Virus record (IMG/VR): IMGVR_UViG_3300038856_000064
Location: 64,001 to 128,000 of that record
From: a virus
DNA length: 64,000 nt
Strand: one strand, 5' to 3'
Below, piece after piece: positions 29,431 through 62,610 of the stretch. The notes beneath the pieces were generated by a model, which saw only the letters and a program-made list of their open reading frames with translations, ran no database searches and was not told the DNA's origin. The stretch's first letter is position 1. The number at the start of each line of letters is the position of its first letter. The position numbers and the translations under genes were made by a program.

Positions 29431-32400
29431 TTAGCTAAAACGAATAAAGTTTTGCCGATTGCTCAAAAAGAATTTGCCTACCTGCTCTGTACCCGTTCCA
29501 GGACTTGAGTCGGTGTCCAAAACCGCTGCGTTCATTAAAATACCCTTGTCTCCCACGATAACGAATTCAGGATTTGGCACAGGAACAATATCAGTTTCCG
29601 TTACAGCATTCTGATCAACATCACCATTATCTAGAAGATTTTTAACACTTACCAAGGCGCCTGACGTACCAACATTATCAACAGAAATAACCTGAACTGG
29701 CGTAGACGAATTTCCACCAGGGTTCAAAAACACACCTGGAGTGGTTAAGGTTAAGTCTGGGCGCTCTAAAACTCGTGGCGTACTATTATTCGCTTGCGAG
29801 GCAAGTGTTGTAAGTTCACCTACATTTACTGCTCCGTTCAAAAGAGGAACGTCAACTAGACGACGAAGTGGGTTGGTATCTTGAATCGCTACGTCAAATA
29901 CACTACTAGATGTTCCTATGCCGCTTACAAAAACTACTGTGCCATTAGAAAATGGACGACCGCCAGTCCAATAGCGCTGAATTTCTCTACGTCCACCAGG
30001 TAACTTAAATTCATTGACGTGATAAAGTGCCTCGTCACCTATATTGAGAAATCCGTCAACACAAATAGCTCCGCCCCTACCAACATCAGGATCAAAATCC
30101 GGATCCGTACTGCCAGGACTCTTGGCTGGTACCGTGTATTCTTGTTGTGTTTCTCCGCGATAACGTTCTTGCGAGCCAGGTTCTGGAATATTGGTAAATG
30201 TTAATGCGAAGTTTACTTCACTAATAGTAGCTCTACGAATTGTTTCACCCTTGCCACGAGATTCGCCAATGATTGGTGGCGGGGTGGGGCGTGGCGGAAC
30301 GCGCGTAGAAGGAGCCAGGGGACTTGCAACATCAAAATCAATTGGTGCTATAATACCATTTAGAATGGCCCGCTGGCGTTCACCCAACGGTGCGTCACGA
30401 CCAAACTCAGCAAAGAAACTAGCAATACGATAATTACTTTTAATGCCGCCAAGACCAAGCGTAAAGTTAACCTCGGTTATTCCATGATTACGAACACCAA
30501 TAACCCCACTAGAGTTTGGTTCGTTATTAGAAAATGCGTCGAATGAAACTTTCGGCAAGCCCACTATCTCAATTTGAGAAAACTGAGAATTAGCTGCTGG
30601 CGCTATTAAGCCTTGCAGTCTACGAAACGCCCTGTCTTCCATTAACTGAATAGATGTTGTACGTCCCTGTGGTGGAAAATTCCATGGAGCAAACTGATTG
30701 TCAATGACGACAACCTCTGAGTCACATGGAGTAGCTAGTTGTCCACTAACCCACGTCTGCGGAAATGACATTCCATAGCGTTCAGTAAACGTAACCGGAA
30801 TAGCAACACCAGTCAGTTGTGTGTATGGATTGATCAAAATTCCAGGATCGACAATATCAAAAATACCAGAACTCGTCGAGTCTAGTGCATCCTCAGCAAG
30901 CGTTACTAGGTTACGGAAGATGAAGCTTTCGTTCAAACCAGTACCTGCAATAATAGGAAGCTCTGCTAAGATAGTCCCCTCTGGATACTCTTCGAAAGCC
31001 GCTAATTGGTCACGAGGATCAATCGGTAATTGGCCAACCTCTGTCAAGGTTATAGGAACGTAATGTTCTCCAGTGCGAGTGCGTCTGCCAGAATCTGCTG
31101 GTGCGTTACCAATATTGTAATCTTCTGTCCACTGACCAAAACCAGCCGGTGGATCTTCCCCCTCTGGGCCATAAACGGTGCCAGACGGAAGGACACAATA
31201 TGCTGTGATTTTATCGTCAGTCCCCTTGAATGGGGCTAGCGGTCCTAGGTCTCTATTGATCTCATAGTTATTTACAAATAAACCACTAGAACCAGTAACA
31301 CTAATAGTTTGCCCTTCTATTTGGTTTTCAATATTGCCCCATGCTGAATTTGCTAGTTGAAATGCACCAGAGGCAGCATTAGCTAATAATCCAGATGCAA
31401 TGAATGCACGACCAAAGAATCTTGCTGCGTGATCACGAACCCTATTGTAAAAATTTAAAACCCAATTCTGATTAGCGTCACGACGATTATTGATAAGACG
31501 GATCTGGCCAGATTCGTTACCACCTAGAGTGGCAATTGGTTGGGCTGGATCAAAACGACTCTGAAAATCTGGATGTTGTGCTGCTATCGTTCCAGCATCT
31601 CCTGCGAGACCAAAGCCTGGAGAAGTCAAGCCAAGATTAAGCGGTGCCGCCTGATACTTCTTAAAGTATGTCCAGTGTTCAATACTTTTCAATGCCGCCT
31701 GCAACTCTAGGTCTGTTGGCTTATAGCTACGCAAAATTCCAACAGCGTCAGTAAATTGCACAGAAAAATTTGGCCACGCTGGCTGAAAAACAATGCCTGA
31801 TTCTGGCGCTGGAACACCGTCAATAGAGCCAAGTAGCGCAGAGTTTAGCCACCCCTCTTGATGCGCACCCAGAAGACGAACACGCCTAGGTTGTGTTACT
31901 AAATCGTCTCCATATTGTAAACTAATCGTTTGGTCTAGACCACTGACCGCGCCCAGGTCTGCCACGATACTCAAGAGGTCTGACTCTTGTAATTCGAATG
32001 CTACCTTACGATTGATTAAGCGCACCTTTTGCTCTGACATACTCCAATACCAGTCATATGCAGTCGCCTCTAAGATACGAGTTATAGCTTCACTTAGTTT
32101 GGTTCCATCAAAACTAAAACGAATAGCTGATGCATCACCACCGAGATTTGCCTCTAGGTCTTCCTTGCTGGGGATAGTGTCTAGGTCAAAATCGATCTCC
32201 CCCTCGTCAATCGCTAGTTGAATAGCGTCAATAACCTGAGGATATGTACACCCCTGCTCTAGAACCTTTCGATATTCACGAAATAACTCTTCCGAGATAT
32301 TACCCTCACTATCCGTAAATCCATCTGTGATTCTTACTCCACGAGCTACTGAAATTACTCCAGACCCAGGATTATCCCCCAAGTCTTCAGTAATTAATTT

Positions 32401-32790
32401 TATTGCATCTAGACAACGACGGGTATCACGAATGTTAATTTGCAGAAGTGATCCTTGAGAATTGGCACTATACTCTGAGTGTATTATCTCTCCACTAGCA
32501 AGGAACTCGCCAACTGTAAATCCTATAATGGAGCCTACTGCCGGAGCCTGACCACTAGCACCATGAAACCCCTTGGGGTCATCACGGGTCGGAACCCAGG
32601 TGGTGTTGAATGAATGCGGCTGTGTGTTGAATCCAAATGAGGCATTGATCTGCACTAGAGCCGCCGCAAGGTCATGTCCTGGCTGGTTTGCCGGGACCTG
32701 TCCAGACGGAAAAGTAACGACTGGTTGACAATCCCCTAGCCCTAGCCCCTCTATATCAATTTGCTGACCATTTAGATTAAAGTTTGCCAT
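29431..32790 (-). CDS. large tail-tip/hub structural protein
   Basis: 1119 aa, beta-rich, last gene of the tail module, about 17 Ser-Gly. Confidence 0.6.
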   Translation of the reverse strand: MANFNLNGQQIDIEGLGLGDCQPVVTFPSGQVPANQPGHDLAAALVQINASFGFNTQPHSFNTTWVPTRDDPKGFHGASGQAPAVGSIIGFTVGEFLASGEIIHSEYSANSQGSLLQINIRDTRRCLDAIKLITEDLGDNPGSGVISVARGVRITDGFTDSEGNISEELFREYRKVLEQGCTYPQVIDAIQLAIDEGEIDFDLDTIPSKEDLEANLGGDASAIRFSFDGTKLSEAITRILEATAYDWYWSMSEQKVRLINRKVAFELQESDLLSIVADLGAVSGLDQTISLQYGDDLVTQPRRVRLLGAHQEGWLNSALLGSIDGVPAPESGIVFQPAWPNFSVQFTDAVGILRSYKPTDLELQAALKSIEHWTYFKKYQAAPLNLGLTSPGFGLAGDAGTIAAQHPDFQSRFDPAQPIATLGGNESGQIRLINNRRDANQNWVLNFYNRVRDHAARFFGRAFIASGLLANAASGAFQLANSAWGNIENQIEGQTISVTGSSGLFVNNYEINRDLGPLAPFKGTDDKITAYCVLPSGTVYGPEGEDPPAGFGQWTEDYNIGNAPADSGRRTRTGEHYVPITLTEVGQLPIDPRDQLAAFEEYPEGTILAELPIIAGTGLNESFIFRNLVTLAEDALDSTSSGIFDIVDPGILINPYTQLTGVAIPVTFTERYGMSFPQTWVSGQLATPCDSEVVVIDNQFAPWNFPPQGRTTSIQLMEDRAFRRLQGLIAPAANSQFSQIEIVGLPKVSFDAFSNNEPNSSGVIGVRNHGITEVNFTLGLGGIKSNYRIASFFAEFGRDAPLGERQRAILNGIIAPIDFDVASPLAPSTRVPPRPTPPPIIGESRGKGETIRRATISEVNFALTFTNIPEPGSQERYRGETQQEYTVPAKSPGSTDPDFDPDVGRGGAICVDGFLNIGDEALYHVNEFKLPGGRREIQRYWTGGRPFSNGTVVFVSGIGTSSSVFDVAIQDTNPLRRLVDVPLLNGAVNVGELTTLASQANNSTPRVLERPDLTLTTPGVFLNPGGNSSTPVQVISVDNVGTSGALVSVKNLLDNGDVDQNAVTETDIVPVPNPEFVIVGDKGILMNAAVLDTDSSPGTGTEQVGKFFLSNRQNFIRFS

Positions 32791-32791
32791 C

Positions 32792-33285: not shown

Positions 33286-33954
33286 CTATAGGAATTCAAT
33301 AACTGCGAACAAACCAAAGTCGCTACGTTCGCCAACCGTTTCCGGCGATGCTGATAGTCCGACAAAGAAGTCGTGAATTACCTCAGCAGTATTGCGATCT
33401 AAAAGAAGTAAACGATTATCGATAGCTCCAGCTCCCGCCATTTGAGTCCACGTAGAATCTACTGTAGGCTCATACCCCTGCACCTTTAGGTTGGTAACAA
33501 CACTACTTACGTCATCAACACCGCTAGATGCGTTTAGATTGACCGTATAGACGATACCATTTTGAGTCTGTACCTCACCAACGGTTGACTCAAAACGAAC
33601 CAATAATGTCCCTGATTCAGACGTAACATTGATTAAGGCAGTTTCTCCTAAGCCGCTTACATTTACTGTACTACTAGAAACGTATTTGTGATTAATTAAC
33701 TCGCCGCTTCCAGGAAGTCCGAAAGGATCTGCACCAAGGTTAGTTCCAGACGTATTAGTGATATACGTCTTATCTTGATAGCGATCAACGATAACAGCAA
33801 ACGGAGTCCCCTCTGGACCTCCAGCGCCAAAAAACCCGACATGGTTGGCACCACTGGTGTTACCAGGTGGATCCAATTGCTCAATCGCGACTATGCTCGT
33901 ATGATTGGAGCTAGCAGGCGATCCTGACGGGGCATAAAAGGTTATCGTACTCAC
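33286..33954 (-). CDS. putative virion structural protein
   Basis: 222 aa, beta-rich, 7 Ser-Gly; AAGGAG RBS; class II promoter upstream. Confidence 0.65.
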   Translation of the reverse strand: MSTITFYAPSGSPASSNHTSIVAIEQLDPPGNTSGANHVGFFGAGGPEGTPFAVIVDRYQDKTYITNTSGTNLGADPFGLPGSGELINHKYVSSSTVNVSGLGETALINVTSESGTLLVRFESTVGEVQTQNGIVYTVNLNASSGVDDVSSVVTNLKVQGYEPTVDSTWTQMAGAGAIDNRLLLLDRNTAEVIHDFFVGLSASPETVGERSDFGLFAVIEFL

Positions 33955-34000: not shown

Positions 34001-36187
34001 CTAAACGTCTAAGATCACCGATCTCCCACCAAAAATGCCATCGACAGGGGCAACCTGATTAATATGCGTAATAATAAAAGATGTGTCCATTTTTGCAAAA
34101 TAAACACTACCATCAAATGTCGAAAAATAAAGATAATTAAGACCCGTGGCCTCATCCCAAACTGCTGGACCGAAACTGTTAACGTCAGAAGCCTCAAGAG
34201 GTAAGCTCGGATCAAATGATATTACCGCAGAGGATGCTGGTGATATTGACATTTTATTTGGGATTGTAACTTGGTTGTTCGTTGTAACAGCTAGACGAAC
34301 TTGCCATGTTGGAAAGGAGCCAATAACATATGTGGTTGAGCTATACGATGTAGACGGAACCTGTTGTGTACTTTTAGAAGCTGTGCTAATCGAAGCAAAA
34401 CGATTTACTAGTGGAAATGAACCTGGCTCTCCCCACTGGAAGTATACCAGTCCGTTCACATTTACAAAACCATAGTTCTGCTTCCTCAAAAAGAAAAACG
34501 AAAAAATATTATTCACAGAATAGGTATTCTGAAAATACTTAGTCTGCTGAGTAGTAAAGGTAGGGGACTCTGGTGGATCAAGCTCAATCCAAATAAAGTT
34601 TCCTTCACTATCTGTTCCCTGCCTATATGTATGTTTTTCGTAAGTAATCGTAGCGGCTACCTTGTTGCCCCCGGCAGCGCGATCACCACCTGGTGATACT
34701 ATAGAGTCAATATACCCCCACTGAATGTAACGCTTACGCCAAATAACCTGGTCTGCCGCCATAATGTCACCAACGTCAAAGTTGGTACTTGGGGCTGATC
34801 CAAAAACACTTGGTCGCGGTTCAAGAGCGGAAGTTGAAAAGATAGACCAGTTTACGGGATAAAATCTATTATTTGTCGTAGCCCACTCAAATCTTGAAGA
34901 ATCTCCACCAGCTAATGGAGTAGTAACCCTATCATAAAAATAAACATCATTACCATTAGCATACCCTAATCTACCAGTGATATCAACGCCCCTAGAGTTT
35001 ACTGCACTATCCACAAAGTGACCAAAAACCCTTCTTCCGTTTATCAAGCTACGACCAACTGGTAAGCCATTCGGATTGACTTCATTTAGGTTATATAGTA
35101 AACGATCAACGATATGGACTCCACGATGAGCTATTCCATTCGGATCTATTCCACTTGTTGCATGATAATTACCTGGCCATGTTTGAATAAGCTGTCCGCT
35201 AGTGCCGGCATCAGAGACATCTAGCATATAAACATTATCACTAGAAAGTCCCGCGGGAATATCATATATAGCCTGGCGCCCTGATGCGTTGACACATCCA
35301 CTATTTTGTGTTTCGTAATATAAATTGAGCTGATCTCCTGCGGGAAATCTAGCCCATGGTATATTTTGAACAAAGTCCCCCTCGGTTGCTCCAGTCTGTC
35401 CTGAGCCAGTTAATAGCTTGAGCGTCGTTCCCTCTACTAATGCATCTCCAGTTATCAATGCACCACCAGAAGATGATACATCTAGACCAAGAAGACCATA
35501 CTTTTCTTTATCGAGATCGGTAAATGTAGGAAGTGATCCGTTTGGCAACGCTGCTGGAAAGATTGGCCTGATAGGCAAGTTGGATGTGCCAACTGCTGAA
35601 GCGGTAGGACGTGTAAACGGCTGCCACTGCACTTCATCCATATCAATGTCTTGAAATTGTAATGCACCTAACTCGACTGTCTCACCTGGTATAATTGTGC
35701 TAGATGGTGCTACCGGCACCGTATTGGTCGGAGCAGGATGAACGTAATTTAAGTCCGAGGTTCCAGACGCACTCGTATTATCCAAATCATAAACCGCTCG
35801 ATTACGACGCATATGTGCTTTAAAAAATTCATCAGACGAATACTGAGAATCAGAAGCATGAAGTGCGGTTACGTCCTCTAATAAATCGCGAAGATCTAAA
35901 ATGTAGTCTGCGTAATGTGGCGTGGCTTGTTCGTATCCACTAGCCGAAAGAGTCGGCTCAATATTAATCGATAGCGCCGCATCCTTGTTGATGTAAAGTT
36001 CAATTGGTGAGTCAACTGGATGCGATGCTATCGGAGTGAATAATCTCTTATCTAGAAGCAGTCCAAATGCGGGAATAGAAAAATAGCGCCCCTCATACCC
36101 AACGCGATCCGACTCATCTAGTCGGAATGGTTCACGAGCATAAGGGTACGGACGATAAAGAAATTCAAATCCGCTTACGCCTGTCAT
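34001..36187 (-). CDS. putative tail fibre / receptor-binding protein
   Basis: 728 aa, beta-rich, follows the LamG protein. Confidence 0.55.
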   Translation of the reverse strand: MTGVSGFEFLYRPYPYAREPFRLDESDRVGYEGRYFSIPAFGLLLDKRLFTPIASHPVDSPIELYINKDAALSINIEPTLSASGYEQATPHYADYILDLRDLLEDVTALHASDSQYSSDEFFKAHMRRNRAVYDLDNTSASGTSDLNYVHPAPTNTVPVAPSSTIIPGETVELGALQFQDIDMDEVQWQPFTRPTASAVGTSNLPIRPIFPAALPNGSLPTFTDLDKEKYGLLGLDVSSSGGALITGDALVEGTTLKLLTGSGQTGATEGDFVQNIPWARFPAGDQLNLYYETQNSGCVNASGRQAIYDIPAGLSSDNVYMLDVSDAGTSGQLIQTWPGNYHATSGIDPNGIAHRGVHIVDRLLYNLNEVNPNGLPVGRSLINGRRVFGHFVDSAVNSRGVDITGRLGYANGNDVYFYDRVTTPLAGGDSSRFEWATTNNRFYPVNWSIFSTSALEPRPSVFGSAPSTNFDVGDIMAADQVIWRKRYIQWGYIDSIVSPGGDRAAGGNKVAATITYEKHTYRQGTDSEGNFIWIELDPPESPTFTTQQTKYFQNTYSVNNIFSFFFLRKQNYGFVNVNGLVYFQWGEPGSFPLVNRFASISTASKSTQQVPSTSYSSTTYVIGSFPTWQVRLAVTTNNQVTIPNKMSISPASSAVISFDPSLPLEASDVNSFGPAVWDEATGLNYLYFSTFDGSVYFAKMDTSFIITHINQVAPVDGIFGGRSVILDV

Positions 36188-39100
36188 TCTAAATAATCAA
36201 TCCCATCCGATAAAGAATCTGATACGATACCCCACTGTCCGCTCATGGCCCAAACTGGTGTGTAGTGCCCTGGCATGGTATAGTCATGTGTCCTTACAAA
36301 ATCTATAAATTGAGTGCCAGATGGTACCTCTAGACTGTTCACAAGACTTTCTTGCATGTCGGCAAAATCTGTATACTCTAATATTCCACTAGTTGTATCT
36401 AGTCCAGATAGGGAATGAGTTAAGAATGCCCTGTGAATAGAGCTACCAGTTGTTGGTGTACCAGATAGTGAGATGCCGGGTAGGGTAGCTAGGTATGCTC
36501 CAGAAGTAGATCCAGATGGCAACAATAGGAATGGTCGGGCGCAACTAGTGCGGTATCCATAACTATCCAACACCTCAATCTTAATAGTATACCATCCTGG
36601 CGTATCAAAGACACGAGAAGCCTCATATAAGCCACTAAATGGAACGCCGTCAATCAGAGTACCCTTTTCCGCACCCTTAAAATCAGCAAACGTAAATCGG
36701 ACTTGGGTAATATCCTTGTCGTCTTGTGCAATTCCACTTCCGCGCACTGTCAAGGTATATGGTAACCCTGAAGTTATAGTTCCGACTACTGGAAGCTCTA
36801 GCGTGCATTCTGGTGGCTGAGTAATTCTGATGACACCCAGCTTCGCATCAAAAGAATAGATCTCTGTTTTTTCTACAGCAAGTCTAGCGTCAAAATCGCT
36901 TGAAGTCACTATTTGGAATGTTAGGGTGGCATCAAACTCATTACTTGTCTCACACGAGCCAAACATATAGTGTCCGACTAGTCCACTGACAACGTCCACA
37001 CCACGCATGAAGTGTCCAAAAATTCCACTTTGTGAATCTGCACCATGCAAAAATCCACCAACCAATCCACTAGTTATGATCTTGCCATGAATATAACCAC
37101 CATAAGTGCTGACGGTGCCAGAAACACCACTGATATGACCAGCGGTTAATGCCGTTTGTTCTCCGACACCATACATATACGCGCCTACAAGACCAGAAAC
37201 AATATTCTGCGCTAGTCCCTCAATCCACATACCAACAGTAGTGTCTTCGTTTTGTGTACCAGTATTAAAATTGTAAGAGTTCGCTGCCAAGCCCGAAATC
37301 TCTGGAAGTGTTAAAGCCCTACTAAATAACATCCAGTCATCCAGCAGACCTGAAAACGCACTACCTCCAGCAAGAGCATCTGATTCTGCATCACCCCTTC
37401 CTCCAAGAGCTAATCCAGAATTATTGATAGGAACCTCAACTAGATCAACGAATGATGTCCCCGCATATCGTCCATTTACCATCACGGCAAATTCATCATT
37501 ATCACGATCATATGTTACTGCTAGGTGGTTCCACTGTTGTGGAGCTAGGTCACCATTTTGTGCAGAGGTCGTCACGTCACCAGACGCGACTGCTATAGCC
37601 TGCAAAGAGTCTGATGGGCTATAAATCTTGACACCGGTTGGTGAAGAGTCTGGACCACTACCCTTATTAAGAATTACGTGTTCATCTGTGGCACTAACAG
37701 ATGGAGGGATTACCCATCCTAGGGCAGTCCATGATTGGGATCCAGAGCCAAGGTCTAACCTTTTAGCCTGAGAATTATTAGGTATCGTATCAAAATATTC
37801 TGTCTGACGAACAACAGCTCCGCTCTCGTGAATCGCAGGCTGAACACCTAAGCCGTGACCATCTTCATTGACTGGGAATAGATGATTTTGTTCCCTGCCA
37901 AAATCAATAGCAAATTTACCAGCTCGATCAAATCTCCAGTGGCTAATATTTGCAGGATCAGTATTAGAAACAGAATTTGTCCCTAATGTGTCATTATTAA
38001 AACCAAGACGTCCAACCTTACTTAGCTCATCATGTGATGCCCCACCCGCATATACGAACGGAGCTTGAATTAGTGTTCCGGAAGGAAATCCTTGTTGACG
38101 TCCAGCTACATTGAAAAGGCTAAAACCACTAGGTGTTGATGTATGGAGAGCATCTAGAGAAGTAAGGGAGGGGGAATATCCTACATTTCTTAAAAGGGTG
38201 GCGTCATCGACATCATCAGTATTTACGTAGAGGTTGGCAATAGTCGAGCCTCCGGATGGTCTTACGCTGGCGGCAATAAAGAACGGTGTGTCAAACGGCA
38301 CTTCTTCATTTGCAGTCACTGTATCAATAGATGAATCGCCAATTCTAACATTCAAGAATGGTATATTATCACTTATTCCTAATTGCCAAGAATTATTATC
38401 AGCCTCAGTTCCCCACGATCCCATAATGTGATGGTCGCCATATAGACCACTAGAGCCATTACCCTGAGTCTCTAAGTCGCCTGATGGAAGATACACAAAT
38501 GCACCCGCCGAAAATCCGCTAGATGACATCAATGAAGAGGTAGAGAAGTCTAGTATGGATCCCGTGAATGCGCGCTCAGTTAATACTATAGAGCCACTAA
38601 CATTAACTTGTAGCGAGTTACTGGAGACTGTGCTATTAAGTTCAGTATCAGAGACCTCTACGGCGCCACTTACATTCGTAAGGTGATGTCTATACCAACT
38701 CTGATCATTATAGCGAACACCAGAAACGCCATCCGGATCATATATAACCTCATTACTGTCATCGAAAATCCAATAACCATAAGTTTGTTTGAATGATGTA
38801 CTGAACGGTGAGATGTCAGGTTGTACAACTAGGCCACTAAGGGCAAAGCCAGACATTTCTGGTAGGGTTAATTTGCGTGAAAAGACAGCCCAATCATCAA
38901 ATAGTGGACGACTAGTAGTAGACGTATCATTAATTGCAGCCCACCCAAAGAAAGAATTAGGATCACTAAGTAACATTTCTTTGCTAAGCCCAGACTCTGC
39001 ACCGATTCGCACATCCTCTACTCTGATACGCTTCGCGTCACGGACAGAATATATGACGTTAGTCTTAAAATCAAATACCAAGCCCCACAACTGCCACGCA

Positions 39101-50100: not shown

Positions 50101-50699
50101 TCAACACCGCCACCACCCGCATCAAATCCGCCAAATCCAGCACCACTACGCGCAGTTGGAGGAACTCGTCCACCACCACCGGCACCAATGTCTGCAACAT
50201 TAACAGTACGTGAGCCGGCTGGAAATGGAAGATTGCCCTTTGCCTTACCAACAGAACCGCTTTGACCTAAGCTCCCCATCGTTTTTACAAGAGAACGCAA
50301 ACCACTATTGACCTGCTTCGTCAACTCGTGCATCCTCTGTAGTGAACCCGCAGACTTGCTAGCCGCTTGACGCTGCGCCTTAAACGGGTCTGTCTTTGTA
50401 CCACCAGCTACATTTGTCTGAATATCTAGTTTGGTTTTCTGAACAGCATTTTGCACAGCTCTACGGATCTTAGACTCTACACCCCTGAGGCTATTCTGAT
50501 TTACCTCTAGCTTAAGCTTATTGAGCTTAATGTTATTAAGCTTGGTCTTAACTTTCTTCGCAGCTTCGCCAGCATCAGACACTAATTTCTTTAATGCCGA
50601 TGTATCTACTTTAAATTTTAAAGTCCCAGCATCAAGATTTCCCTTAACCTCGACACCAGTAATCTTTAATTTTGATTCAATATCAAACTGGTCAGCCAA
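44157..50699 (-). CDS. tail tape measure protein
   Basis: 2180 aa; TP901-type core (FNDSLIELNKI, A.EFARAG, GTALKTL.SR), Gly/Ala-rich hydrophobic segment, long coiled coils; TTG start with GGAG. Confidence 0.93.
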   Translation of the reverse strand: MADQFDIESKLKITGVEVKGNLDAGTLKFKVDTSALKKLVSDAGEAAKKVKTKLNNIKLNKLKLEVNQNSLRGVESKIRRAVQNAVQKTKLDIQTNVAGGTKTDPFKAQRQAASKSAGSLQRMHELTKQVNSGLRSLVKTMGSLGQSGSVGKAKGNLPFPAGSRTVNVADIGAGGGGRVPPTARSGAGFGGFDAGGGGVDRLSRGIKEVTSSTEKANLKMKDLEDLTFEVGRKAAAFRGVAIAINTVVNAVQAAVKFVIDFNDSLIELNKILQTSDKTLQMVGNDLFGLSSKTGVAVDQTINIAQEFARAGLAGRGYGTVVELTDRALTGLQGTTLDAAQSSQLFVQIIQQVEANVRGLSKELVTTTKLFDVLGKAEDITASKATDVQQAFKRSAASIFATGATIEQATAVISVLQERTQRGGDVVGTALKTLASRISSSTSDATKALNAIGVQTIDTQGNLRNLFDVLQDTAVAFQTLTESEQADVAVKAAGIRQVEIFRAALQDFGRTQDVTNQLIEATGDATRKQRAEQSKLANVIARLQIAFQQLVRTTSEGVLGEMFIGALKGVEAVATSIAQLDRALGGAASTFTGFLAVGLAAKVLIPMFIGIKRAISFFIHSQDKAAVGMGKIDAQGKMVAQTVEGRMNTAMQRTAMLTAEANNQMKGLSASALFAAKQAERMAKARAAAYLGSAAGQEGVANRARGNMTSQGIDIIATGRAIQEPTKAVGRFGSVTNGASKALQFASRHITFVGLAASVAGGALQSLSNGLNKGGSTGLGAAADIGGGALGGAGTGALLGSFIPGVGTAIGAGVGALAGAIPGLVRTFSDAGNQTDELRRRYIELGIVQTENGEITSAVAQKLDESLRNLKSFKNFELKLEEGRLQDLFDPGGAQARKEKIQGSRQSAQQGLRASFDRSASAAEQNARIFQALSKTLEARTGEQLDLSASDLLLKSSPILNEIGETTLRELERETLSLAESFGTSTDQVRQIFDEEISRVRNKPLTADAIKKAEQTLSRDVEGFIEGLDVLIPAGGQIARAAEEQAGKFKEAVSAIALGQGGEEAQKIVRETLADVLTGKTILQGGSGENIVSSAGRGELQSLVDQASSFATKRQNVGTQGIGQATPEILKRIGELIRKDVGAEASAKAQDRIIKSQERVADAFSSIRLELPLDKFDRFLDEPVDKLQFALREFISEFGREVGKLNETRLKATTPQIELADALARHASETAKSLTRRADLEKSDALQKARVEFQTIAGPGERQFGNLDALRAKLGEGIIPQDAERRIKDSGRNMKDFLNGLDNIDLAELFEIDESDANKIRDAAVRTTGGALKDLFKTLFDTGRKLADEGVIDPDAQRAALQNARGGLDLTGVNDEQIKKVTDGVLGLLKTFTKLDTEALQATITSNKAMVDALKKRLTEEQKTIALDQRRREVTALNARAISEELTGIRRLVAEREIEARLADGVIAASQSRLSGLDAEIMKLNAIETTEQNRVGVLDQLKTLEDERVQESIKLEESLAKQRIASIRNTLSVAKEATNAAKVAAEFEKKRITGLAEISKLLSVDQSEMSKFNAELNTLGAEFRVSQAELAAEATVVNATITDQAEKEARLSDIKKRGAALALEQAQAEAQIIQKRREAIKQVSQELVGNAQEQVDAQRAVIEATAAVGDAFESYLQAVDGAIMATTRYNLGLSLAAVETTKITGGFSGLRQEIGAVQDTFRSAERLARDLGASEKTLVEIRRESINQQLTLFNNLLQEQSQLARNFFTSSTQDQADLFSGIQEAGAVADLLGGSFGEFKKLGESAINDLGAQLLALPQETRQRIVSSLETLRSVGGEVGGFTADQLLTAIETSSLGVSGEGLQVDPLFEIQERIAGLQEQQAQIATEQLIASQEQVIAAKEQLEQAQAQKDLAEIQLERVKEEGDKLRGKLGELQGQLNTTLLQQEQTQRQGFSAVTGAITRVGEAVVSRLPDAFSVRVAEAFREVMNSGGVPVSNAQVGSDARRTPESDGKILSDAQREAGRNRAQVQQMMGQAGPSVVNTAVASSSALPGAGGGNLSDLNNDTVRRLEDIVTQLKDLNTTSESNLAVTEAIRDSSGSTVGTATAVAGSDGTEITINVEGQTNVTVTGFEAGVARLATTLAESLGGFVSNDEARRIANEVLENIRTELLRRGIISPTTL

Positions 50700-53354: not shown

Positions 53355-54734
53355 TTAGCTATCGTCAAAACTATTTGGGAATGGCGCGGCGCCGATATTG
53401 AATCGATCACTTCCATTCTCAAACACTAGCGTTCTGTGGTTCGGTTGGAACCTATCATGACTAATTGTTAGTGAGTTAAACGAACTAAAGTTGTAGGTGA
53501 CTGTCATGTTGTCGCCACCAGCCTCACCACCACCAACATCGATAGTCGTTAGAACATTCGAGTCACCAACATCTACTTGGAGACCGTCACAGGTACGAAC
53601 GATAATTGTGTTATTGGCAGTTTGGTTAGGACCACAATCAACTTCAGATGTCGCATCGACTAGGTCACCCTGAGATGTGACAACTTCAATCGCAGTTGTA
53701 ACTTCTACAGGAAAGGTTACATACTTGGTGAATGGACGCAGCGAGCCTAGCTCGAAAATGTCATCACGACCAATGTCTGCGGTTACTGTTACTGATTGTA
53801 GGTGCTCAACTACACCACTCGTATTTGAAGTTACGACTAGTTGGGTCAAGGCGTTGCCAGCAGAGTCTACTGCGCCAGAAACACCAACTGCGGCGTATCC
53901 CTTTTCGATTAGCTGCTCAACACTGACACCAGAACCGAGCGGCGAAGTGATACCAGGGATGTCAGACGGAAGAACCGAACGACGGATATCTACTTCCTCA
54001 CGACGCTGGACACCAGAACCGACGATAAGCACGCCGAAGCCTGCTTCACCACCAGCTAGTTCCTGAACGCCACCCAATGGCTCGTGACCGAATACACCAG
54101 ACGGAACACCCTCAGGGGTCTCACTATCAGGTGGAGTCAATGCCGGTGGATAGGTATTAACGGCTTCACCAGGAACACTGGCGTCAAAGTTTGCCCACTT
54201 CTTATCGTTACCGACAAGAGTAATGGATTCGTTTACTGCACCATCGACAGGGAAGGTGTAAGCAACGGTTGATAGATACATACCCGACAAAAGCACTGCC
54301 GAAAGTGGCGAAGCGGTATTTGCACGGAATTGTGTATCTGAATAAATGTTAAGAATAATATCACTGCGATGGAACGCAGTCTTTCCAACTAGATCCGTAA
54401 ACGTGGGATCAGTCAGCATGAACCACAATGGCTTAGTACCGTCGATAATCTTCTCGACAGTTACCTCAACATCCGGCTGACGCTCCGAGTACTCGTAAAG
54501 CTCAACCTGACCAAGCTGGAAAACCGTTTCACGGTTAAAGTTAGTCGACATAGCGACTGACTGTACACCGCGTGGGACTTCCCAAAGGCCAGCTACTTCA
54601 TCTACCGAAGCGGCAGAAAATAGACCGGATGCATATTCGCGCGCGTTAAGTGGTGCCACGCTGTTAGTTGGACCCGCAGCATTATCCTTGATCGCCACCT
54701 GCTCAAGGGCGTAAAAAGTTCTGCGATTTGGCAT
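53355..54734 (-). CDS. major tail (tube) protein
   Basis: Two related halves (GVQSV...FQLGQ.ELYE and HLQSV...IFELG...PF); strong RBS, own promoter and terminator; position. Confidence 0.75.
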   Translation of the reverse strand: MPNRRTFYALEQVAIKDNAAGPTNSVAPLNAREYASGLFSAASVDEVAGLWEVPRGVQSVAMSTNFNRETVFQLGQVELYEYSERQPDVEVTVEKIIDGTKPLWFMLTDPTFTDLVGKTAFHRSDIILNIYSDTQFRANTASPLSAVLLSGMYLSTVAYTFPVDGAVNESITLVGNDKKWANFDASVPGEAVNTYPPALTPPDSETPEGVPSGVFGHEPLGGVQELAGGEAGFGVLIVGSGVQRREEVDIRRSVLPSDIPGITSPLGSGVSVEQLIEKGYAAVGVSGAVDSAGNALTQLVVTSNTSGVVEHLQSVTVTADIGRDDIFELGSLRPFTKYVTFPVEVTTAIEVVTSQGDLVDATSEVDCGPNQTANNTIIVRTCDGLQVDVGDSNVLTTIDVGGGEAGGDNMTVTYNFSSFNSLTISHDRFQPNHRTLVFENGSDRFNIGAAPFPNSFDDS

Positions 54735-54806: not shown

Positions 54807-54958
54807 ACACCCTAAAGCAATGTCGCCTACTGATATTAAATTGCTTGGCAATAACGTCTACAGCCACCCCTTCTTGATTTAGTTGCTTAATTTGGATAAT
54901 ATCATCTAGAGATAATTTTCTTACACATTGCAATTTTGTAAATATACCCAATCATCAT
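54796..54958 (-). pseudogene. collapsed GIY-YIG homing endonuclease relic; not in ORF track
   Basis: ATGA-coupled start MMIGYIYKI, then in the +1 frame an HTH: KLSLDDIIQIKQLNQEGVAVDVIAKQFNISRRHCFRV*. Confidence 0.65.
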
Positions 54959-56013
54959 GACTCGTAATTCACTCCATCAACGCCCTCTAGACCTATATCA
55001 AGCCCAAATGGGGTAGTGGGCATAATGGCATGTATCTGAACAGATAAGCGCACCACAGCCCTCTCAAAGACGTCCTGCTGAGTCGTAGCATCTGAAAAAA
55101 AGGAATCTAAGTCTACTAGCTCAGTTTCCTGAATAAAACCTCTAAACGCCACTGGATTTATTCCAGAAAAGGCTGGACCTGGCAATGGCTGATTTAAAGC
55201 TAATGAGCTATAAGGAACATAATCTGGACTTAGCTCATTCTTCAAGCCAGACAATGGAAATGGCGCTATATTATAATTAATGACCGGAAAGCTTTTTCTA
55301 GCCTGTAGAGACACTAAATCTATTAGATTATCTCTTGTGCTTTCGTCTAATGCCCAGATCTCGCATTTTAATTCATCTGTTAAAACTAAAGACCTATCAC
55401 CTAGTTGATAGTTAGAGTGTGTTCGCCTAACATTCTCAGTAAATATAATGGGAAGTGGTATAACCCTAGTTGATCCAGATGGATAGATTAGTTGTCCGGC
55501 AGTAAATGGATTACTCTTATACTGAGCCTCAAGCGCACCCTCTCTCAACTGATTGTTAAATTGACGCAGATTCAGAATCTGAACATTTTTATATGAAAAC
55601 TCTCCATGAACGGTTGTATCCAGTGGTAATGGACTATCAAAAATAATACGTCCATTTATATAGTCAATGCTATGTGGATAAACTGCATCGTTCTCTAAGC
55701 GAAAGGCGCCGTCAATATAAACACCGCTAGCACGAAACGCAGTTGGCCAATGCCTAAGAATAACGGAGGGATTGAGTGCTGGCGGATTCTGGTATATCCA
55801 GTTACGAAATAGAGATTGCCATACCTGACCAGGCTGATAACCACCTTCTGCTAATATCTCTTGCGCCGTATCCGGTACCAAAAGACTCATGTCGCTACCA
55901 TCATAAAATTGCGTACCACTTGTAACTATATCATAACAACCATCACGAAGCAATTCGGCATCTAGAAACTCACGCCAACTGTGCTTGAGCAAAAATCTCG
56001 GTTTAAAAAACAT
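54955..56013 (-). CDS. putative tail terminator/completion protein
   Basis: Position before the tail tube; IDYINGRIIF, LPIIF.E, YQLG, RDNLID. Confidence 0.55.
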   Translation of the reverse strand: MFFKPRFLLKHSWREFLDAELLRDGCYDIVTSGTQFYDGSDMSLLVPDTAQEILAEGGYQPGQVWQSLFRNWIYQNPPALNPSVILRHWPTAFRASGVYIDGAFRLENDAVYPHSIDYINGRIIFDSPLPLDTTVHGEFSYKNVQILNLRQFNNQLREGALEAQYKSNPFTAGQLIYPSGSTRVIPLPIIFTENVRRTHSNYQLGDRSLVLTDELKCEIWALDESTRDNLIDLVSLQARKSFPVINYNIAPFPLSGLKNELSPDYVPYSSLALNQPLPGPAFSGINPVAFRGFIQETELVDLDSFFSDATTQQDVFERAVVRLSVQIHAIMPTTPFGLDIGLEGVDGVNYES

Positions 56014-59384: not shown

Positions 59385-59413
59385 CGAGCCTCCTTGATAA
59401 ACTGGTTACTAAA

Positions 59414-60954: not shown

Positions 60955-60959
60955 ACTAA

Positions 60960-60987
60960 TATTATGTGTCTAGAAGTAATAATCGTG
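60960..60987 (-). promoter_or_regulatory. class I phage promoter, leaderless
   Basis: CACGATTATTACTTCTAGACACATAATA followed by 5 nt and then ATG. Confidence 0.8.
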
Positions 60988-61011
60988 CTCTCTAATTGGC
61001 ATAGACAGGCT

Positions 61012-61040
61012 AAAAGAAAAGGGCTGGCCTGGCCAGCCCC
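61012..61040 (-). terminator. rho-independent terminator after the capsid gene
   Basis: GGGCUGGC-CAG-GCCAGCCC followed by UUUUCUUUU. Confidence 0.88.
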
Positions 61041-61076
61041 TAACTTCATATAAGCTACCGACTTAGGATATAAATC

Positions 61077-62108
61077 CTAGAAGGCCCCCAAGAGCACCCG
61101 GCGGTTGTCAAGACATGCGAAACCATGACGCATCCAGCCAAAGATACCCATGCGCTGGTATCTGGTGAGTGCATCGTCATCGTATACCTCAAGCTCTTCC
61201 TTGATTGGCATGACAAAGGAATCGTCTGCTTCACTAAGGTCAAGACCAACACAGAACTGTTCGGTGTTGTTTGGCTTAGTTAGACTGAGAACAGTCTCTA
61301 GGAAGGCATCGTATTCTTGGTCCTGACCAAACTCGGTCATTGCGTGCATGATGACACCGTAGATTTCTGCAAGACCCTTTTCAGAGCTTGTAAAGATCTC
61401 GCGACGAGTAAACTCATCGACACGGCTTGCGTCCCATGCTCGGACGTGCTCCATTGCTTCTAGAGAAACGTAGAGGTCGGTTAGACGCCCTGCGTTTCCG
61501 TTACCACCAGCACCACGAGTCATCGCTGTGTGCATACGGCTTACTAGTTCCTTGGTGAATTCACCAGGATTTGGCGACGTGGTTAGGGTATTGACAGATC
61601 CTGTAAATACCGCAGTGCCACTTGCTCCTACGACCAGACCACGGTCCGCTGCTGCGGCGAGGATAGTGCGCCAGCCATCAGAGTTGATCTTGCGAACAAA
61701 ACCAGCCTCAAATACCTGTAGTGCGCGCTTGACTACGTCCCAACGTGCTTCCTTCATAAATTTGATATCCCAATCAATTGAGTTACCAATCTTGAAGGTA
61801 GGAACGTTGATCTCACTTGCTTCTACTCGACGTTCTGGCAGACGACCCTGCTCAGCTAGAGTATAAGCTGTGTAAGTGTCCTCATCACCCGGACGAACAA
61901 AGTCTAGCGGATAACTAGCCGTTGCTCCGTAAGGAATGACCTGTGGAGTATAGATATCACCCAAGTTGTCAGCATCAAAGATGCCTCGACGTAGGGGTGC
62001 AACTAATTCCTGTGCGAACGACTTTCGTGCAGCCTCTGACATGCCCTGATCGCGGGAGGCCATCGCACGTAGAAGCGTTAGCATCTGCTCATCTTGCTTC
62101 TCATACAT
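61077..62108 (-). CDS. major capsid protein (HK97-fold)
   Basis: 343 aa after the scaffold and decoration genes; GGAGGT RBS; terminator after; HK97-like C-terminus G.FGW..HGFACLDNR. Confidence 0.85.
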   Translation of the reverse strand: MYEKQDEQMLTLLRAMASRDQGMSEAARKSFAQELVAPLRRGIFDADNLGDIYTPQVIPYGATASYPLDFVRPGDEDTYTAYTLAEQGRLPERRVEASEINVPTFKIGNSIDWDIKFMKEARWDVVKRALQVFEAGFVRKINSDGWRTILAAAADRGLVVGASGTAVFTGSVNTLTTSPNPGEFTKELVSRMHTAMTRGAGGNGNAGRLTDLYVSLEAMEHVRAWDASRVDEFTRREIFTSSEKGLAEIYGVIMHAMTEFGQDQEYDAFLETVLSLTKPNNTEQFCVGLDLSEADDSFVMPIKEELEVYDDDALTRYQRMGIFGWMRHGFACLDNRRVLLGAF

Positions 62109-62127
62109 AACTTTTTACCTCCGTTGA

Positions 62128-62610
62128 TTATTGTAGTTCGATTCGAACTTTTGCGAAGCCATCGGAATCAACAGCGCTCATAAACTGACCAACACGAGTG
62201 TGATCACTTAGTGCTCCGGATGGCGTCAAGTTACCATTACCAATGTTTCCATTAGGTGCTAGGTAAGCTGGCTGACCCGCAGCAATCGCTACACCACCGT
62301 TCGCTACGACCAAATCTGTCTGTAGCTCACCACGGCGAAGTAACGTTACAACAGTGCCAATGTCGGCAGTGTCGTACTGAGAACGCTCAAGTTCTTTAGC
62401 ATAGTTGAACTCTTCACGAGTATTGAGTAGGACGCCCATCGGATAGATACCAGATCCATCACCAGCAGCAATCTGCACGGCTCCTACAACATCCACCTTA
62501 CCAGCGACACCAGATGCTACAACTAGAGTGCCCGGCTCTGCCGCGCGATCTAGGATAAACTGCATCGTGGTTTCGTGACGGTGGCTTAAGCCTCCACTTT
62601 TCAATGACAT
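62128..62610 (-). CDS. head decoration/cement protein
   Basis: 160 aa between scaffold and capsid genes; beta-tulip-like G..LL, G.PAYL..NG, VG.F pattern. Confidence 0.7.
   Translation of the reverse strand: MSLKSGGLSHRHETTMQFILDRAAEPGTLVVASGVAGKVDVVGAVQIAAGDGSGIYPMGVLLNTREEFNYAKELERSQYDTADIGTVVTLLRRGELQTDLVVANGGVAIAAGQPAYLAPNGNIGNGNLTPSGALSDHTRVGQFMSAVDSDGFAKVRIELQ

What the first reader, a model, noticed from the sequence alone, without database searches (positions are those of the whole stretch)
29431..62610. Ser-Gly enrichment in outer virion proteins: candidate sequon for a phage-encoded virion O-glycosylation system
Seen (hand counts of SG dipeptides): about 46 in the 1498-aa LamG fibre (against about 20 for the reverse GS), 17/1119, 11/495, 7/176, 6/196, 7/222, 7/459 (tail tube) and 4/160 (decoration protein). 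The internal tape measure protein has about 11/2180 and DnaE 4/1123; the major capsid protein has only 1/343, so the signal is mainly on tail and fibre proteins. SG is usually followed by a hydrophobic residue (SG-I/L/V/F/A). The same genome carries about 10 glycosyltransferases with no obvious signal peptide. Established: Ser-Gly is the acceptor motif for proteoglycan O-xylosylation, and virus-encoded virion glycosylation is known in some mycobacteriophages and giant viruses. Inference: the phage builds a glycan coat on its tail and fibres, addressed by an SG sequon. I do not know of such a sequon being described for a phage.
Basis: partly seen in the sequence, partly recalled or inferred. 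Interest (0 to 1): 0.92.

Follow-up and report, generated by a model that had tools for sequence, protein, structure and literature searches.

The report
Ser-Gly-hydrophobic tag on phage tail proteins
The tail, baseplate and fibre proteins of this uncultured 175-kb phage and all its relatives carry the three-residue pattern Ser-Gly-hydrophobic about four times too often, which is most simply explained as an attachment signal for the phage's own sugar-adding enzymes, although no chemistry has yet shown that.

Summary
In the distal tail/fibre block SG occurs 105 times against 43.9 expected (z 9.2) and tops all 400 dipeptides. GS, TG, NG and DG are not enriched, and the other 187 proteins sit at 1.00.

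The sharper motif is S-G-[ILVFMA]:
- This clade: 3.3-4.1x.
- T4, T5, phiKZ, Che8 and Myrna: 0.55-1.46x.
- 135 LamG proteins from outside the family: 1.14x.

Both serine codon families encode it. SG serines are 91 % conserved between orthologs, against 40-44 % for other serines. The excess appears in at least 12 unrelated virion protein families and in all 14 superfamily genomes tested (GC 34-54 %). It falls from distal tail (3.6x) to proximal tail and head (2.5x), to the internal tape measure (1.0x) and non-virion proteins (0.87x).

The phage carries a soluble glycan pathway: GDP-mannose dehydratase, aminotransferases, a formyltransferase and 8 GT-like genes. It has no export machinery and no DNA hydroxymethylase. 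A long GT4 with a four-cysteine finger is universal in the superfamily.

The link to glycosylation stays circumstantial. Motif and GT genes are both superfamily-wide, so their co-occurrence counts as one evolutionary event. This scan has noted similar Ser-Gly motifs on other phage DNA.

The parts
36184..40680 (-). 1498-aa multi-LamG fibre protein; 46 SG (17.9 expected), 33 SG-hydrophobic (5.9 expected)
   Evidence: Counts. Pfam Laminin_G_3 at residues 980-1129. Orthologs in 11 genomes give SG 414/172.7. At the LamG end motif the family has SG in 17 of 17 cases, and SG is not among the ten commonest pairs over 251 outsider instances.
42658..44145 (-). 495-aa distal tail (Dit)/tube-fold baseplate protein just downstream of the tape measure gene in transcription order (gene at lower window coordinates; genes on the minus strand); 11 SG (3.7 expected)
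   Evidence: The 11 SG sites are near-invariant in a 35-sequence alignment. AF2 model pLDDT 64.5. VIA-align: N-terminal domain matches Dit/tail-tube proteins, best Z 9.5, rmsd 2.6 over 109 residues.
42128..42658 (-). 176-aa beta-sandwich tail-tip protein; 7 SG (2.1 expected); paralog of the next gene
   Evidence: AF2 model pLDDT 76.5: 6 of 7 SG serines in coil, one at a strand end. Fold shared with uncharacterised proteins of Bacillus phages SP-15 and G. Family-wide O/E 3.25.
41528..42118 (-). 196-aa paralog of the 176-aa protein; 6 SG (2.2 expected)
34001..36187 (-). 728-aa fibre/baseplate protein; 9 SG (5.9 expected)
   Evidence: Family O/E 1.86.
33286..33954 (-). 222-aa tail/fibre protein; 7 SG (2.7 expected)
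   Evidence: Family O/E 2.46 in 11 genomes.
29431..32790 (-). 1119-aa fibre/baseplate protein; 17 SG (8.0 expected)
   Evidence: Family O/E 1.74 in 12 genomes.
53355..54734 (-). 459-aa major tail protein candidate; 7 SG (3.7 expected), all 7 followed by a hydrophobic residue
   Evidence: Family O/E 1.96. Identity as tube or sheath not verified.
54955..56013 (-). 352-aa proximal tail/neck protein; 5 SG (1.7 expected)
   Evidence: Family O/E 2.87 in 12 genomes.
62128..62610 (-). 160-aa head-associated protein next to the MCP gene; 4 SG (1.3 expected)
   Evidence: Weak PHROG 563 'virion structural protein' hit.
44157..50699 (-). 2180-aa tape measure protein; internal control without the excess (11 SG, 13.7 expected)
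   Evidence: Family-wide SG-hydrophobic 60/59.
61077..62108 (-). 343-aa major capsid protein; no excess (1 SG, 1.4 expected)
   Evidence: PHROG 3922 major head protein.
13642..15519 (-). 625-aa GT4 glycosyltransferase with a four-cysteine finger insertion and a conserved C-terminal tail that resembles DUF4214 (my reading of the A4 consensus; not scanned against Pfam); universal in the superfamily; candidate initiating enzyme
   Evidence: Pfam PF00534, 50.2 bits. Invariant CxxC...CxxC in a 9-genome alignment. Present in all 13 other genomes and in 436 viral contigs. Nearest Atlas clusters are all viral GT4.
12419..13645 (-). 408-aa GT4 glycosyltransferase, also superfamily-wide
10315..12426 (-). 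Two GT2 glycosyltransferases (272 aa and 349 aa)
   Evidence: GT2-349 is present in most relatives; GT2-272 only in genomes with a strong motif.
669..7352 (-). Variable part of the glycan island: GT2-like protein, two CgeB-like (PF13524) GTs, sugar N-formyltransferase, methyltransferase and DegT aminotransferase
   Evidence: Conserved in G001. G002 lacks the formyl- and methyltransferase.
1..399 (-). C-terminal part of a 305-aa weak GT9-like protein that runs off the window start. The upstream island continues outside the window with GDP-mannose 4,6-dehydratase, an epimerase/reductase and a second DegT.

Best explanation
S-G-hydrophobic, usually preceded by P, A, V or T, is a short acceptor signal on outward-facing virion proteins.

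Proposed mechanism:
- The signal is read in the host cytoplasm by a soluble, phage-encoded O-glycosyltransferase.
- The best candidate is the superfamily-wide 600-aa GT4 with a four-cysteine finger.
- That enzyme puts a first sugar on the serine hydroxyl.
- The other phage GTs extend it, using GDP-6-deoxy-amino-hexoses that the phage makes itself (Gmd, aminotransferase, formyltransferase: a perosamine-type route).
- The result is a glycan coat on tail tip, fibres, tail and head accessory proteins.

What is shown: the motif excess, its serine specificity, its conservation, its restriction to virion proteins, its independence of fold, and the presence of a complete soluble glycan pathway.

What is inferred: that the pathway acts on these proteins, that the serine is the attachment point, and which GT initiates.
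For: 1. Not chance and not composition. SG is 105 against 43.9 (z 9.2), top of 400 dipeptides, while the rest of the genome is 1.00.

2. Protein-level signal. Both Ser codon families are used. The excess holds across genomes with GC 34-54 %. At long range, retained SG serines have switched codon family in 39-54 % of cases.

3. Serine-specific tripeptide. SG-phi is 3.3-4.1x, whereas TG-phi is 0.45-0.61x and AG-phi about 1.

4. Not a property of fibres or of the fold.
- T4, T5, phiKZ, Che8 and Myrna give 0.55-1.46x.
- 135 out-of-family LamG proteins give 1.14x, against 5.39x in family orthologs.
- At the homologous LamG end position the family has SG in 17 of 17 cases, and outsiders have AA, QA or QS.

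5. Strong selection. SG-Ser is 0.91 conserved, against 0.40-0.44 for other Ser. The 11 sites in the Dit-like protein are near-invariant in 35 sequences.

6. The motif itself is maintained. Twelve BLAST-unrelated protein families carry it at p<1e-3, against about 1 expected. At depth most SG columns are lineage-specific, yet the density persists, also in poorly conserved segments.

7. Topological gradient: distal tail 3.61, head and proximal tail 2.51, tape measure 1.01, non-virion 0.87 with p 0.014.

8. Sites lie in loops. 14 of 18 SG serines are in coil in two AF2 models, often directly before a strand.

9. A pathway with no other obvious target.
- Eight GT-like genes plus Gmd, two DegT, a formyltransferase and a methyltransferase.
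- No polytopic membrane protein in the genome.
- No thymidylate-synthase-type hydroxymethylase in this genome or in 5 complete relatives.

10. Precedent. TibC heptosylates Ser-313 in QNSGGAVI of TibA, on serine only and in the cytoplasm, and it grips its substrate with a four-cysteine finger (PMC4358343). Phage-encoded virion glycosylation is known in mycobacteriophages (as cited in PMC12619734).
Against: - No chemical evidence of any modification exists.
- Motif and GT island are both present in every relative examined, so their co-occurrence is one phylogenetic event and carries little weight.
- SG sites are positionally fixed at short range, as a structural motif would also be.
- No GT could be assigned to a protein-glycosylating family. 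All are far below curated cut-offs and far from solved enzymes.
- The major capsid protein lacks the motif, although it is exposed.
- Solvent exposure of the serines was not measured.
- The virion role of most SG-rich proteins rests on gene order; only the Dit-like protein has fold support.
- The genome record is rated 82 % complete, so absence of export or DNA-modification genes is supported mainly by the complete relatives.
Confidence: 0.45

Rival explanations
1. S-G-hydrophobic is a lineage-specific structural or assembly motif and is not modified. It would be a preferred way of closing a loop and starting a beta-strand that arose early in this superfamily. It could be kept for folding or stability of virion proteins, or because a phage chaperone or assembly partner recognises it. 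On this view the glycan island serves another purpose.
For: - Sites are fixed in position among close relatives, and when they change it is mainly to Ala.
- The flanks are rich in beta-strand formers at -4, -3 and +2 to +5.
- SG sits at loop-to-strand junctions in both models.
- There is no GT-less contrast to tie the motif to the GTs.
Against: - The same folds elsewhere do not use it: LamG outsiders 1.14x, and fibres of five other phages 0.55-1.46x.
- It appears in at least 12 unrelated protein families of different folds.
- Thr, Asn, Asp and Ala, which usually substitute in turn motifs, are not enriched before G-phi.
- Non-virion proteins of the same phage do not use it, and the internal tape measure does not either.
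Confidence: 0.3
2. The motif is read by something other than the phage GTs. Candidates are another modification of serine (phosphorylation, acylation, phospho-sugar or phosphocholine-type addition) by a phage or host enzyme, or direct recognition by a host surface component during adsorption.
For: The evidence shows only that serine in this context is selected on exposed virion proteins.
Against: No kinase, acyltransferase or phosphotransferase was found among the annotated window genes. The genes between the fibres and DnaE form a replication module. In contrast, a large conserved glycan pathway without another evident target is present.
Confidence: 0.12
3. The glycan island acts on the host envelope (using host carrier lipid, flippase and ligase) or on phage DNA, and has nothing to do with the SG motif.
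For: GT2/GT4 enzymes, GDP-perosamine-type routes and N-formyltransferases are typical of O-antigen and capsule synthesis. Phage GTs are known to modify DNA and host serotype (reviewed in PMC12619734).
Against: - The genome has no priming transferase-like, flippase-like or polymerase-like polytopic protein.
- There is no hydroxymethylase for a glycosylatable base, here or in 5 complete relatives.
- All GTs appear soluble.
- The nearest Atlas clusters of the long GT4 are virus-specific.
Confidence: 0.2

Closest known systems
Bacterial autotransporter heptosyltransferases (TibC/AAH) acting on TibA and AIDA-I
   Same: Both involve cytoplasmic, multi-site O-glycosylation of beta-rich surface fibres by a soluble GT-B enzyme. 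TibC acts on serine only, never threonine, and one mapped site reads N-S-G-G-A-V. The enzyme grips its substrate with a four-cysteine metal finger inserted in the catalytic domain (PMC4358343). The phage's universal long GT4 also has an invariant CxxC...CxxC insertion.
   Different: TibC belongs to the GT9 family and uses ADP-heptose. The phage candidate is GT4, and the phage pathway makes GDP-6-deoxy-hexose derivatives. The phage's GT9-like protein is only a weak match, with no similarity to TibC. The substrates here are many different folds, not one beta-helix. Modification is not shown here.
Mycobacteriophage virion glycosylation by phage-encoded glycosyltransferases (Freeman et al. 2023; known to me through PMC12619734)
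   Same: In both cases a phage encodes GTs and the proposed or shown targets are virion proteins.
   Different: In mycobacteriophages the glycans sit at the C-termini of capsid and tail tube subunits. Here the motif is spread over loops of tail-tip, fibre and accessory proteins, and the capsid protein lacks it. Che8 and Myrna show no SG-phi excess (1.00 and 0.83). The lineage and the GT set differ.
Proteoglycan O-xylosylation at Ser-Gly (eukaryotic xylosyltransferases)
   Same: Both have Ser followed by Gly as the core of the acceptor.
   Different: By established knowledge the eukaryotic site needs nearby acidic residues and is read in the secretory pathway. Here +2 is hydrophobic, and Asp and Glu are depleted at +2/+3. 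No related enzyme is present.
General O-glycosylation of Bacteroidota, sequon D-(S/T)-(A/I/L/V/M/T)
   Same: Both are three-residue sequons ending in a hydrophobic or small residue and used on many unrelated proteins.
   Different: The Bacteroidota sequon needs Asp before the acceptor, accepts Thr and acts in the periplasm (own knowledge). Here Gly follows Ser, Asp is not enriched before it, Thr is excluded, and the enzymes are soluble.
GtfA/GtfB O-GlcNAc transfer to serine-rich repeat adhesins
   Same: In both a GT4-family soluble enzyme would glycosylate serines of a surface fibre in the cytoplasm (own knowledge).
   Different: The adhesin substrates are low-complexity Ser-rich repeats, not isolated S-G-hydrophobic sites in folded domains. 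No sequence relationship was detected.

Membership tests
Phage-encoded virion glycosylation (mycobacteriophage type) | Phage genome encodes glycosyltransferases | tested here: met
   Eight GT-like genes with Pfam support, plus sugar-nucleotide enzymes.
Phage-encoded virion glycosylation (mycobacteriophage type) | Glycans attached to C-terminal extensions of the capsid and tail tube subunits | tested here: not met
   The candidate sites are loop motifs spread over tail-tip and fibre proteins. The MCP has 1 SG and no SG-hydrophobic.
Phage-encoded virion glycosylation (mycobacteriophage type) | Chemical demonstration of glycan on virion proteins | not testable with these tools
   No cultured member and no proteomic data. 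Relatives were found only in metagenomes.
BAHT (TibC/AAH) protein O-heptosyltransferases | GT9-type catalytic domain related to LPS heptosyltransferases | tested here: inconclusive
   A 305-aa phage protein matches PF01075 at 22.6 bits (cut-off 22) and heptosyltransferase NCBIfams far below their cut-offs. There was no TibC hit in the PDB sequence search.
BAHT (TibC/AAH) protein O-heptosyltransferases | Four-cysteine iron finger inserted in the catalytic domain | tested here: inconclusive
   An invariant CxxC...CxxC insertion exists, but in the GT4-625 protein and not in the GT9-like one. Homology to the TibC finger was not tested.
BAHT (TibC/AAH) protein O-heptosyltransferases | Serine-only acceptor sites in beta-rich fibres | tested here: met
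   At the level of motif statistics only: SG-phi 3.3-4.1x and TG-phi 0.45-0.61x.
Proteoglycan xylosyltransferase Ser-Gly sequon | Acidic residues flanking Ser-Gly | tested here: not met
   Asp and Glu are depleted at +2/+3, and hydrophobic residues are enriched.
Bacteroidota D-(S/T)-(A/I/L/V/M/T) O-glycosylation | Asp immediately before the acceptor; Thr accepted | tested here: not met
   Position -1 is enriched in P, A, V and T, not D. TG-phi is depleted.
Lipid-linked surface polysaccharide pathway (Wzx/Wzy or ABC type) | Polytopic priming transferase, flippase, polymerase or permease | tested here: not met
   A hydropathy scan of all ORFs finds no protein with more than 4 predicted membrane segments, and none of those lies in the island. 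Use of host machinery cannot be excluded.
Glycosylated hydroxymethyl-pyrimidine DNA (T-even type) | Thymidylate-synthase-family hydroxymethylase | tested here: not met
   PF00303 is absent in this genome and in five complete relatives with terminal repeats.

The most novel reading that the evidence does not exclude
A Ser-only tripeptide sequon, S-G-hydrophobic, directs cytoplasmic O-glycosylation of a phage's outer virion proteins. In this genome it marks 159 sites: 153 in the distal tail and fibre proteins and a further 6 in the head and proximal tail. A virus-specific GT4 carrying a four-cysteine substrate-gripping finger would initiate the glycan. The core of the system is conserved, and the outer glycan varies across a large superfamily of 130-200 kb aquatic phages. 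Together with the different Ser-Gly-type motifs that this scan has noted in other phage lineages, it would mean that sequon-addressed glycan coats are a common, so far unrecognised feature of environmental phages.
Probability: 0.4. Interest if true: 0.88.

Novelty: new variant of a known kind. Interest (0 to 1): 0.72.

Why it matters
Virion glycosylation by phage-encoded enzymes has been shown only in a few mycobacteriophages, and no acceptor sequon has been defined for any phage. I found none in five full-text literature searches.

If S-G-hydrophobic is such a sequon, three things follow:
- Glycan coats on environmental phages could be predicted from sequence alone.
- The purpose of the large GT islands common in big aquatic phages would be explained.
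- It would provide a small, portable tag and a soluble enzyme for cytoplasmic glycoengineering.

The hypothesis can be tested directly with two or three cloned genes and one 176-aa substrate.

Even if the motif proves to be structural, it would still be unusual. A serine-specific three-residue pattern imposed on a dozen unrelated folds, in the virion proteins of one virus lineage only, would need an explanation.

Tried and rejected
**Explanations rejected**
- DNA-level cause (restriction or other word, codon bias). Serine in SG uses AGY 51 % and TCN 49 %, more than 20 different hexamers occur, and the excess holds from GC 34 % to 54 %.
- Internal repeats inflating the counts. Only a short 14-residue repeat around residues 1162-1232 of the fibre and a few duplicated segments in the second fibre block are repetitive. 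Most contexts are unique, and 12 unrelated families carry the excess.
- A generic fibre or turn propensity.

**Searches that found nothing useful**
- Megablast and tblastn against cultured phages: no relatives.
- PHROGs on 19 virion-module proteins: only three weak or unrelated hits.
- PDB sequence searches and NCBIfam for the GTs: nothing specific.
- Foldseek against PDB for both models: no match at E<=0.001.
- The Freeman et al. 2023 paper is not held.

**Contrasts that could not be made**
- A GT-less relative for a presence/absence contrast. All 23 long family contigs and 15 further contigs reached through the long GT4 belong to one capsid superfamily and carry the GTs.
- Tracking motif strength against particular island genes. 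The two CgeB-like GTs and GT2-272 occur only in strong-motif genomes, but this is confounded with relatedness and BLAST reach.

**Not attempted**
- Complex prediction was not used, because an enzyme-substrate pair is outside what the tool is recommended for.

Full report
**What the window is.** The window is bases 64001-128000 of a 175,148-bp IMG/VR virus record. All genes run on the minus strand. In transcription order they are:
- A head module. The MCP lies at 61077-62108 (weak PHROG 3922 hit) and a 160-aa neighbour at 62128-62610.
- Proximal tail genes and a 2180-aa tape measure protein (44157-50699).
- A block of nine tail-tip, baseplate and fibre genes (44145-29431).
- A replication module with RecA, DnaB, primase, dNMP kinase, a nuclease and DnaE.
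- A sigma factor, followed by a glycan-biosynthesis island (15519-669) that continues upstream of the window.

Cultured phages give no match by megablast or by tblastn with the MCP. PHROGs recognise almost none of the virion proteins.

One SG-rich protein now has fold support. It is the 495-aa protein encoded right after the tape measure gene. Its N-terminal domain matches distal tail (Dit) and tail-tube-fold baseplate proteins throughout the top 50 of a VIA-align search. The best match is the 80alpha baseplate (Z 9.5, rmsd 2.6 over 109 residues), and SPP1 Dit scores Z 8.5.

Every hand count was reproduced exactly. Expectations below come from each protein's own composition.

| Protein set | SG observed / expected | Note |
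|---|---|---|
| Distal tail/fibre block | 105 / 43.9 | z 9.2, largest of all 400 dipeptides |
| Second fibre block (genome 37895-43008, outside the window) | 48 / 20.3 | z 6.1 |
| Head and proximal tail | 34 / 23.1 | |
| Tape measure | 11 / 13.7 | |
| Other 187 proteins | 152 / 151.4 | |

Within-protein shuffles of the distal block gave 44.0 +/- 5.8 with a maximum of 63. In the same block GS is 49/43.9, TG 27/36.7, NG 21/25.6 and DG 19/31.3.

A hydrophobic residue (ILVFMA) follows SG at 97 of 153 fibre sites, against 45 of 152 elsewhere. P, A, V and T are favoured just before the serine. Strand-forming residues are favoured at -4, -3 and +2 to +5. Asp, Glu and Pro are disfavoured just after the Gly.

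As a tripeptide the signal is much sharper. In this clade S-G-[ILVFMA] is 3.98x expectation, TG-phi is 0.45x and AG-phi is 0.92x.

**It is a protein-level signal.** Serine in SG is encoded 51 % by AGY and 49 % by TCN, and more than 20 hexamers occur. The excess is present in genomes from 34 % to 54 % GC. Among distant orthologs, retained SG serines have switched between the two codon families in 39-54 % of cases. Serine has therefore been kept while the codon randomised.

**It is not a general property of fibres or of the folds involved.**
- *Other phages.* Proteins of fibre-like composition (S+G at least 17 %) in T4, T5, phiKZ, Che8 and Myrna have SG O/E 0.87-1.25 and SG-phi 0.55-1.46, with 0-1 outlier proteins per genome. 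This clade has 2.2-2.5 and 3.9-4.1, with 6-11 outliers.
- *Same fold.* The LamG region of the fibre was searched against 1.84 billion representative proteins. Fifteen family orthologs have SG-phi 5.39x. The 135 out-of-family LamG proteins (269,198 aa) have 1.14x, with a per-protein maximum of 2.45.
- *Same position.* Directly after the LamG end motif, the family has SG in 17 of 17 cases. Outsiders have AA, QA, QS and similar pairs over 251 instances, and SG is not among the ten commonest pairs.

**It is under selection, and the motif itself is maintained.**
- Between orthologs that are 44-79 % identical, SG serines are conserved at 0.91. Other serines are conserved at 0.40-0.44 and all other residues at 0.57.
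- In a 35-sequence alignment of the Dit-like protein, the 11 sites keep Ser in 26-35 sequences, 31 or more at ten of the 11 sites. The rare replacements are mostly Ala, never Thr at these sites. The following residue drifts among L, I, V and F.
- Over 12 genomes, single-linkage BLAST clustering gives 864 protein families. Twelve mutually unrelated families carry the SG excess at p<1e-3 (O/E 1.7-3.9). About one would be expected by chance, and the GS control gives three.
- At superfamily depth most SG columns are lineage-specific: 86 of 186 in the large fibre occur in one genome. The density stays the same, and the excess persists in the least conserved third of three of the five families examined (1.66, 2.14, 2.72). 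Alignment error inflates the apparent turnover, but the excess in poorly alignable segments does not depend on alignment.

**It follows virion topology.** Pooled over 12 genomes, SG-phi runs as follows.

| Class | SG-phi O/E |
|---|---|
| Distal tail and fibre proteins | 3.61x |
| Head and proximal tail proteins | 2.51x |
| Tape measure protein | 1.01x |
| Non-virion proteins | 0.87x (249 against 286, p 0.014) |

The mild depletion outside the virion fits avoidance of off-target sites, but it is weak.

In the two AF2 models, 14 of 18 SG serines are in coil. The models are the Dit-like protein (pLDDT 64.5) and the 176-aa beta-sandwich (pLDDT 76.5, pTM 0.77). Several sites sit one or two residues before a strand, and two close a strand.

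**The glycan pathway.** The island holds these Pfam-supported genes:
- GDP-mannose 4,6-dehydratase and an NAD-dependent epimerase/reductase.
- Two DegT-type aminotransferases.
- A sugar N-formyltransferase and a methyltransferase.
- Eight GT-like genes: a weak GT9-like, a GT2-like, two CgeB-like (PF13524), two GT2 and two GT4.

An IMPDH/GMP-reductase homolog also lies in the island.

Together these describe a GDP-6-deoxy-amino-hexose route of the perosamine type, followed by oligosaccharide assembly. Three findings limit what the pathway could act on:
- No ORF in the genome has more than four predicted membrane segments, and none of those lies in the island. The phage therefore brings no priming transferase, flippase, polymerase or permease.
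- The thymidylate-synthase family, which supplies hydroxymethyl-pyrimidines for DNA glycosylation, is absent here and in five complete relatives with terminal repeats.
- The island is syntenic in two close relatives.

Across 13 other genomes, Gmd, GT4-625 and GT4-408 are universal and GT2-349 nearly so. The remaining GTs and tailoring genes vary, giving a conserved core with a variable periphery.

GT4-625 has invariant CxxC...CxxC cysteines inserted in the catalytic domain. Its conserved C-terminal tail looks to me like DUF4214. That is a reading of the A4 consensus from memory, with no Pfam hit on this protein; one search reports the family in 22 % of one neighbouring Atlas cluster. Its nearest clusters in the ESM Atlas are all viral GT4 families.

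**Why the link remains circumstantial.** All 23 long contigs of the capsid family carry GT4 genes. Fifteen more long contigs were reached through the long GT4. Seven of them have the same capsid type, one gave only a weak partial match, and the other seven, all rated 35-79 % complete, gave none. All 14 genomes analysed carry the motif, at strengths from 1.3x to 4.1x.

There is therefore no independent gain or loss to test, and the association counts as one event. The two CgeB-like GTs and GT2-272 are found only in strong-motif genomes, but relatedness confounds that. None of the GTs can be placed in a known protein-glycosylating family.

**Comparison with known systems.**
- *TibC/AAH heptosyltransferases.* These are the closest working analogy. 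They act in the cytoplasm on many serines, never threonines, of beta-rich adhesins. One mapped TibA site reads N-S-G-G-A-V, and a four-cysteine finger in the catalytic domain binds the substrate (PMC4358343). The phage system is not a member of that family, because its candidate enzyme is GT4 and its sugars are GDP-linked.
- *Mycobacteriophage virion glycosylation.* This is the only established phage precedent. It targets C-terminal extensions of capsid and tail tube proteins (as summarised in PMC12619734). Che8 and Myrna show no SG-phi excess.
- *Eukaryotic Ser-Gly xylosylation and the Bacteroidota D-S/T-hydrophobic sequon.* The flanking residues observed here fit neither.
- *Literature.* Five full-text searches found no described phage virion sequon.

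**Earlier scan notes.** Follow-ups on other phage lineages reported different Ser-Gly-type motifs (S/T-G-S, T-x-S-G, S/T-G) on outer virion proteins, some with a GT presence/absence contrast. I did not test those claims and do not count them as evidence. A sequence look-up found no earlier work on relatives of this phage.

**Verdict.** A serine-specific, fold-independent, virion-restricted and conserved tripeptide calls for a lineage-specific reader. A purely structural or assembly role comes second (about 0.30). Cloned genes and mass spectrometry can decide between them.

Noticed in passing
outside the window: genome 37895-43008 (+ strand), locus L076:1895-7008: A second block of seven SG-rich proteins with no Pfam hits (for example 304 aa with 14 SG, 241 aa with 10 SG). 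It lies 50 kb from the main virion module and on the opposite strand. It is probably an extra set of fibres, with repeated segments of the kind E-L-S-G-L-F-T-x-A-S-G-A.
   Followed up: partly
window 13642-15519 (GT4-625) and alignment A4: The superfamily-wide long GT4 has four invariant cysteines (CxxC, about 18 residues, then CxxC) inserted in the GT-B domain, and a conserved C-terminal tail that I read as DUF4214-like (not confirmed by a Pfam scan). In relative G002 the homologous ORF is 1007 aa, which suggests an insertion (intein or endonuclease) or a fusion.
   Followed up: partly
window 15509-16699 and 59425-60954: Two HNH/homing-endonuclease genes. The first lies between GT4-625 and the sigma factor gene and is absent from G001 and G002. 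The second lies in the head module, next to the MCP gene on its downstream side (lower window coordinates). They look like mobile insertions.
   Followed up: no
outside the window: genome 50229-53342, locus L077:5229-8342: A 1037-aa class II ribonucleotide reductase interrupted by LAGLIDADG/Hom_end domains, so probably intein-containing.
   Followed up: no
window 8586-9701 and 8054-8641: An IMPDH/GMP-reductase homolog (331 bits) and a weak MazG-like protein sit inside the glycan island. They may boost the guanine nucleotide pool for GDP-sugar synthesis.
   Followed up: no
window 36184-40680, protein residues about 1162-1240: A short run of 14-residue repeats of the form S-G-L-V-G-x-Y/F-M/L-x-G near the C-terminal third of the LamG fibre. 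The protein also seems to hold three LamG-like modules, each ending in L-T-L-P-E-I/M-S-G.
   Followed up: no
window 44157-50699: The tape measure protein has 2180 residues. By the usual rule of about 1.5 angstrom per residue, the tail would be roughly 300 nm long.
   Followed up: no
loci L275-L285 (G035), 60832-73170: A deep-branching 201-kb relative (GC 34 %) encodes a 4112-aa protein with 82 SG against 41.8 expected. The motif is therefore also used on giant fibre proteins in distant branches.
   Followed up: no
model m664101ca4d7b (window 42128-42658): The 176-aa beta-sandwich shares its fold with uncharacterised proteins of the giant Bacillus phages SP-15 (TM 0.59/0.66, E 1.2e-4) and G gp173. 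It may be a tail-tip module widespread in large phages.
   Followed up: no
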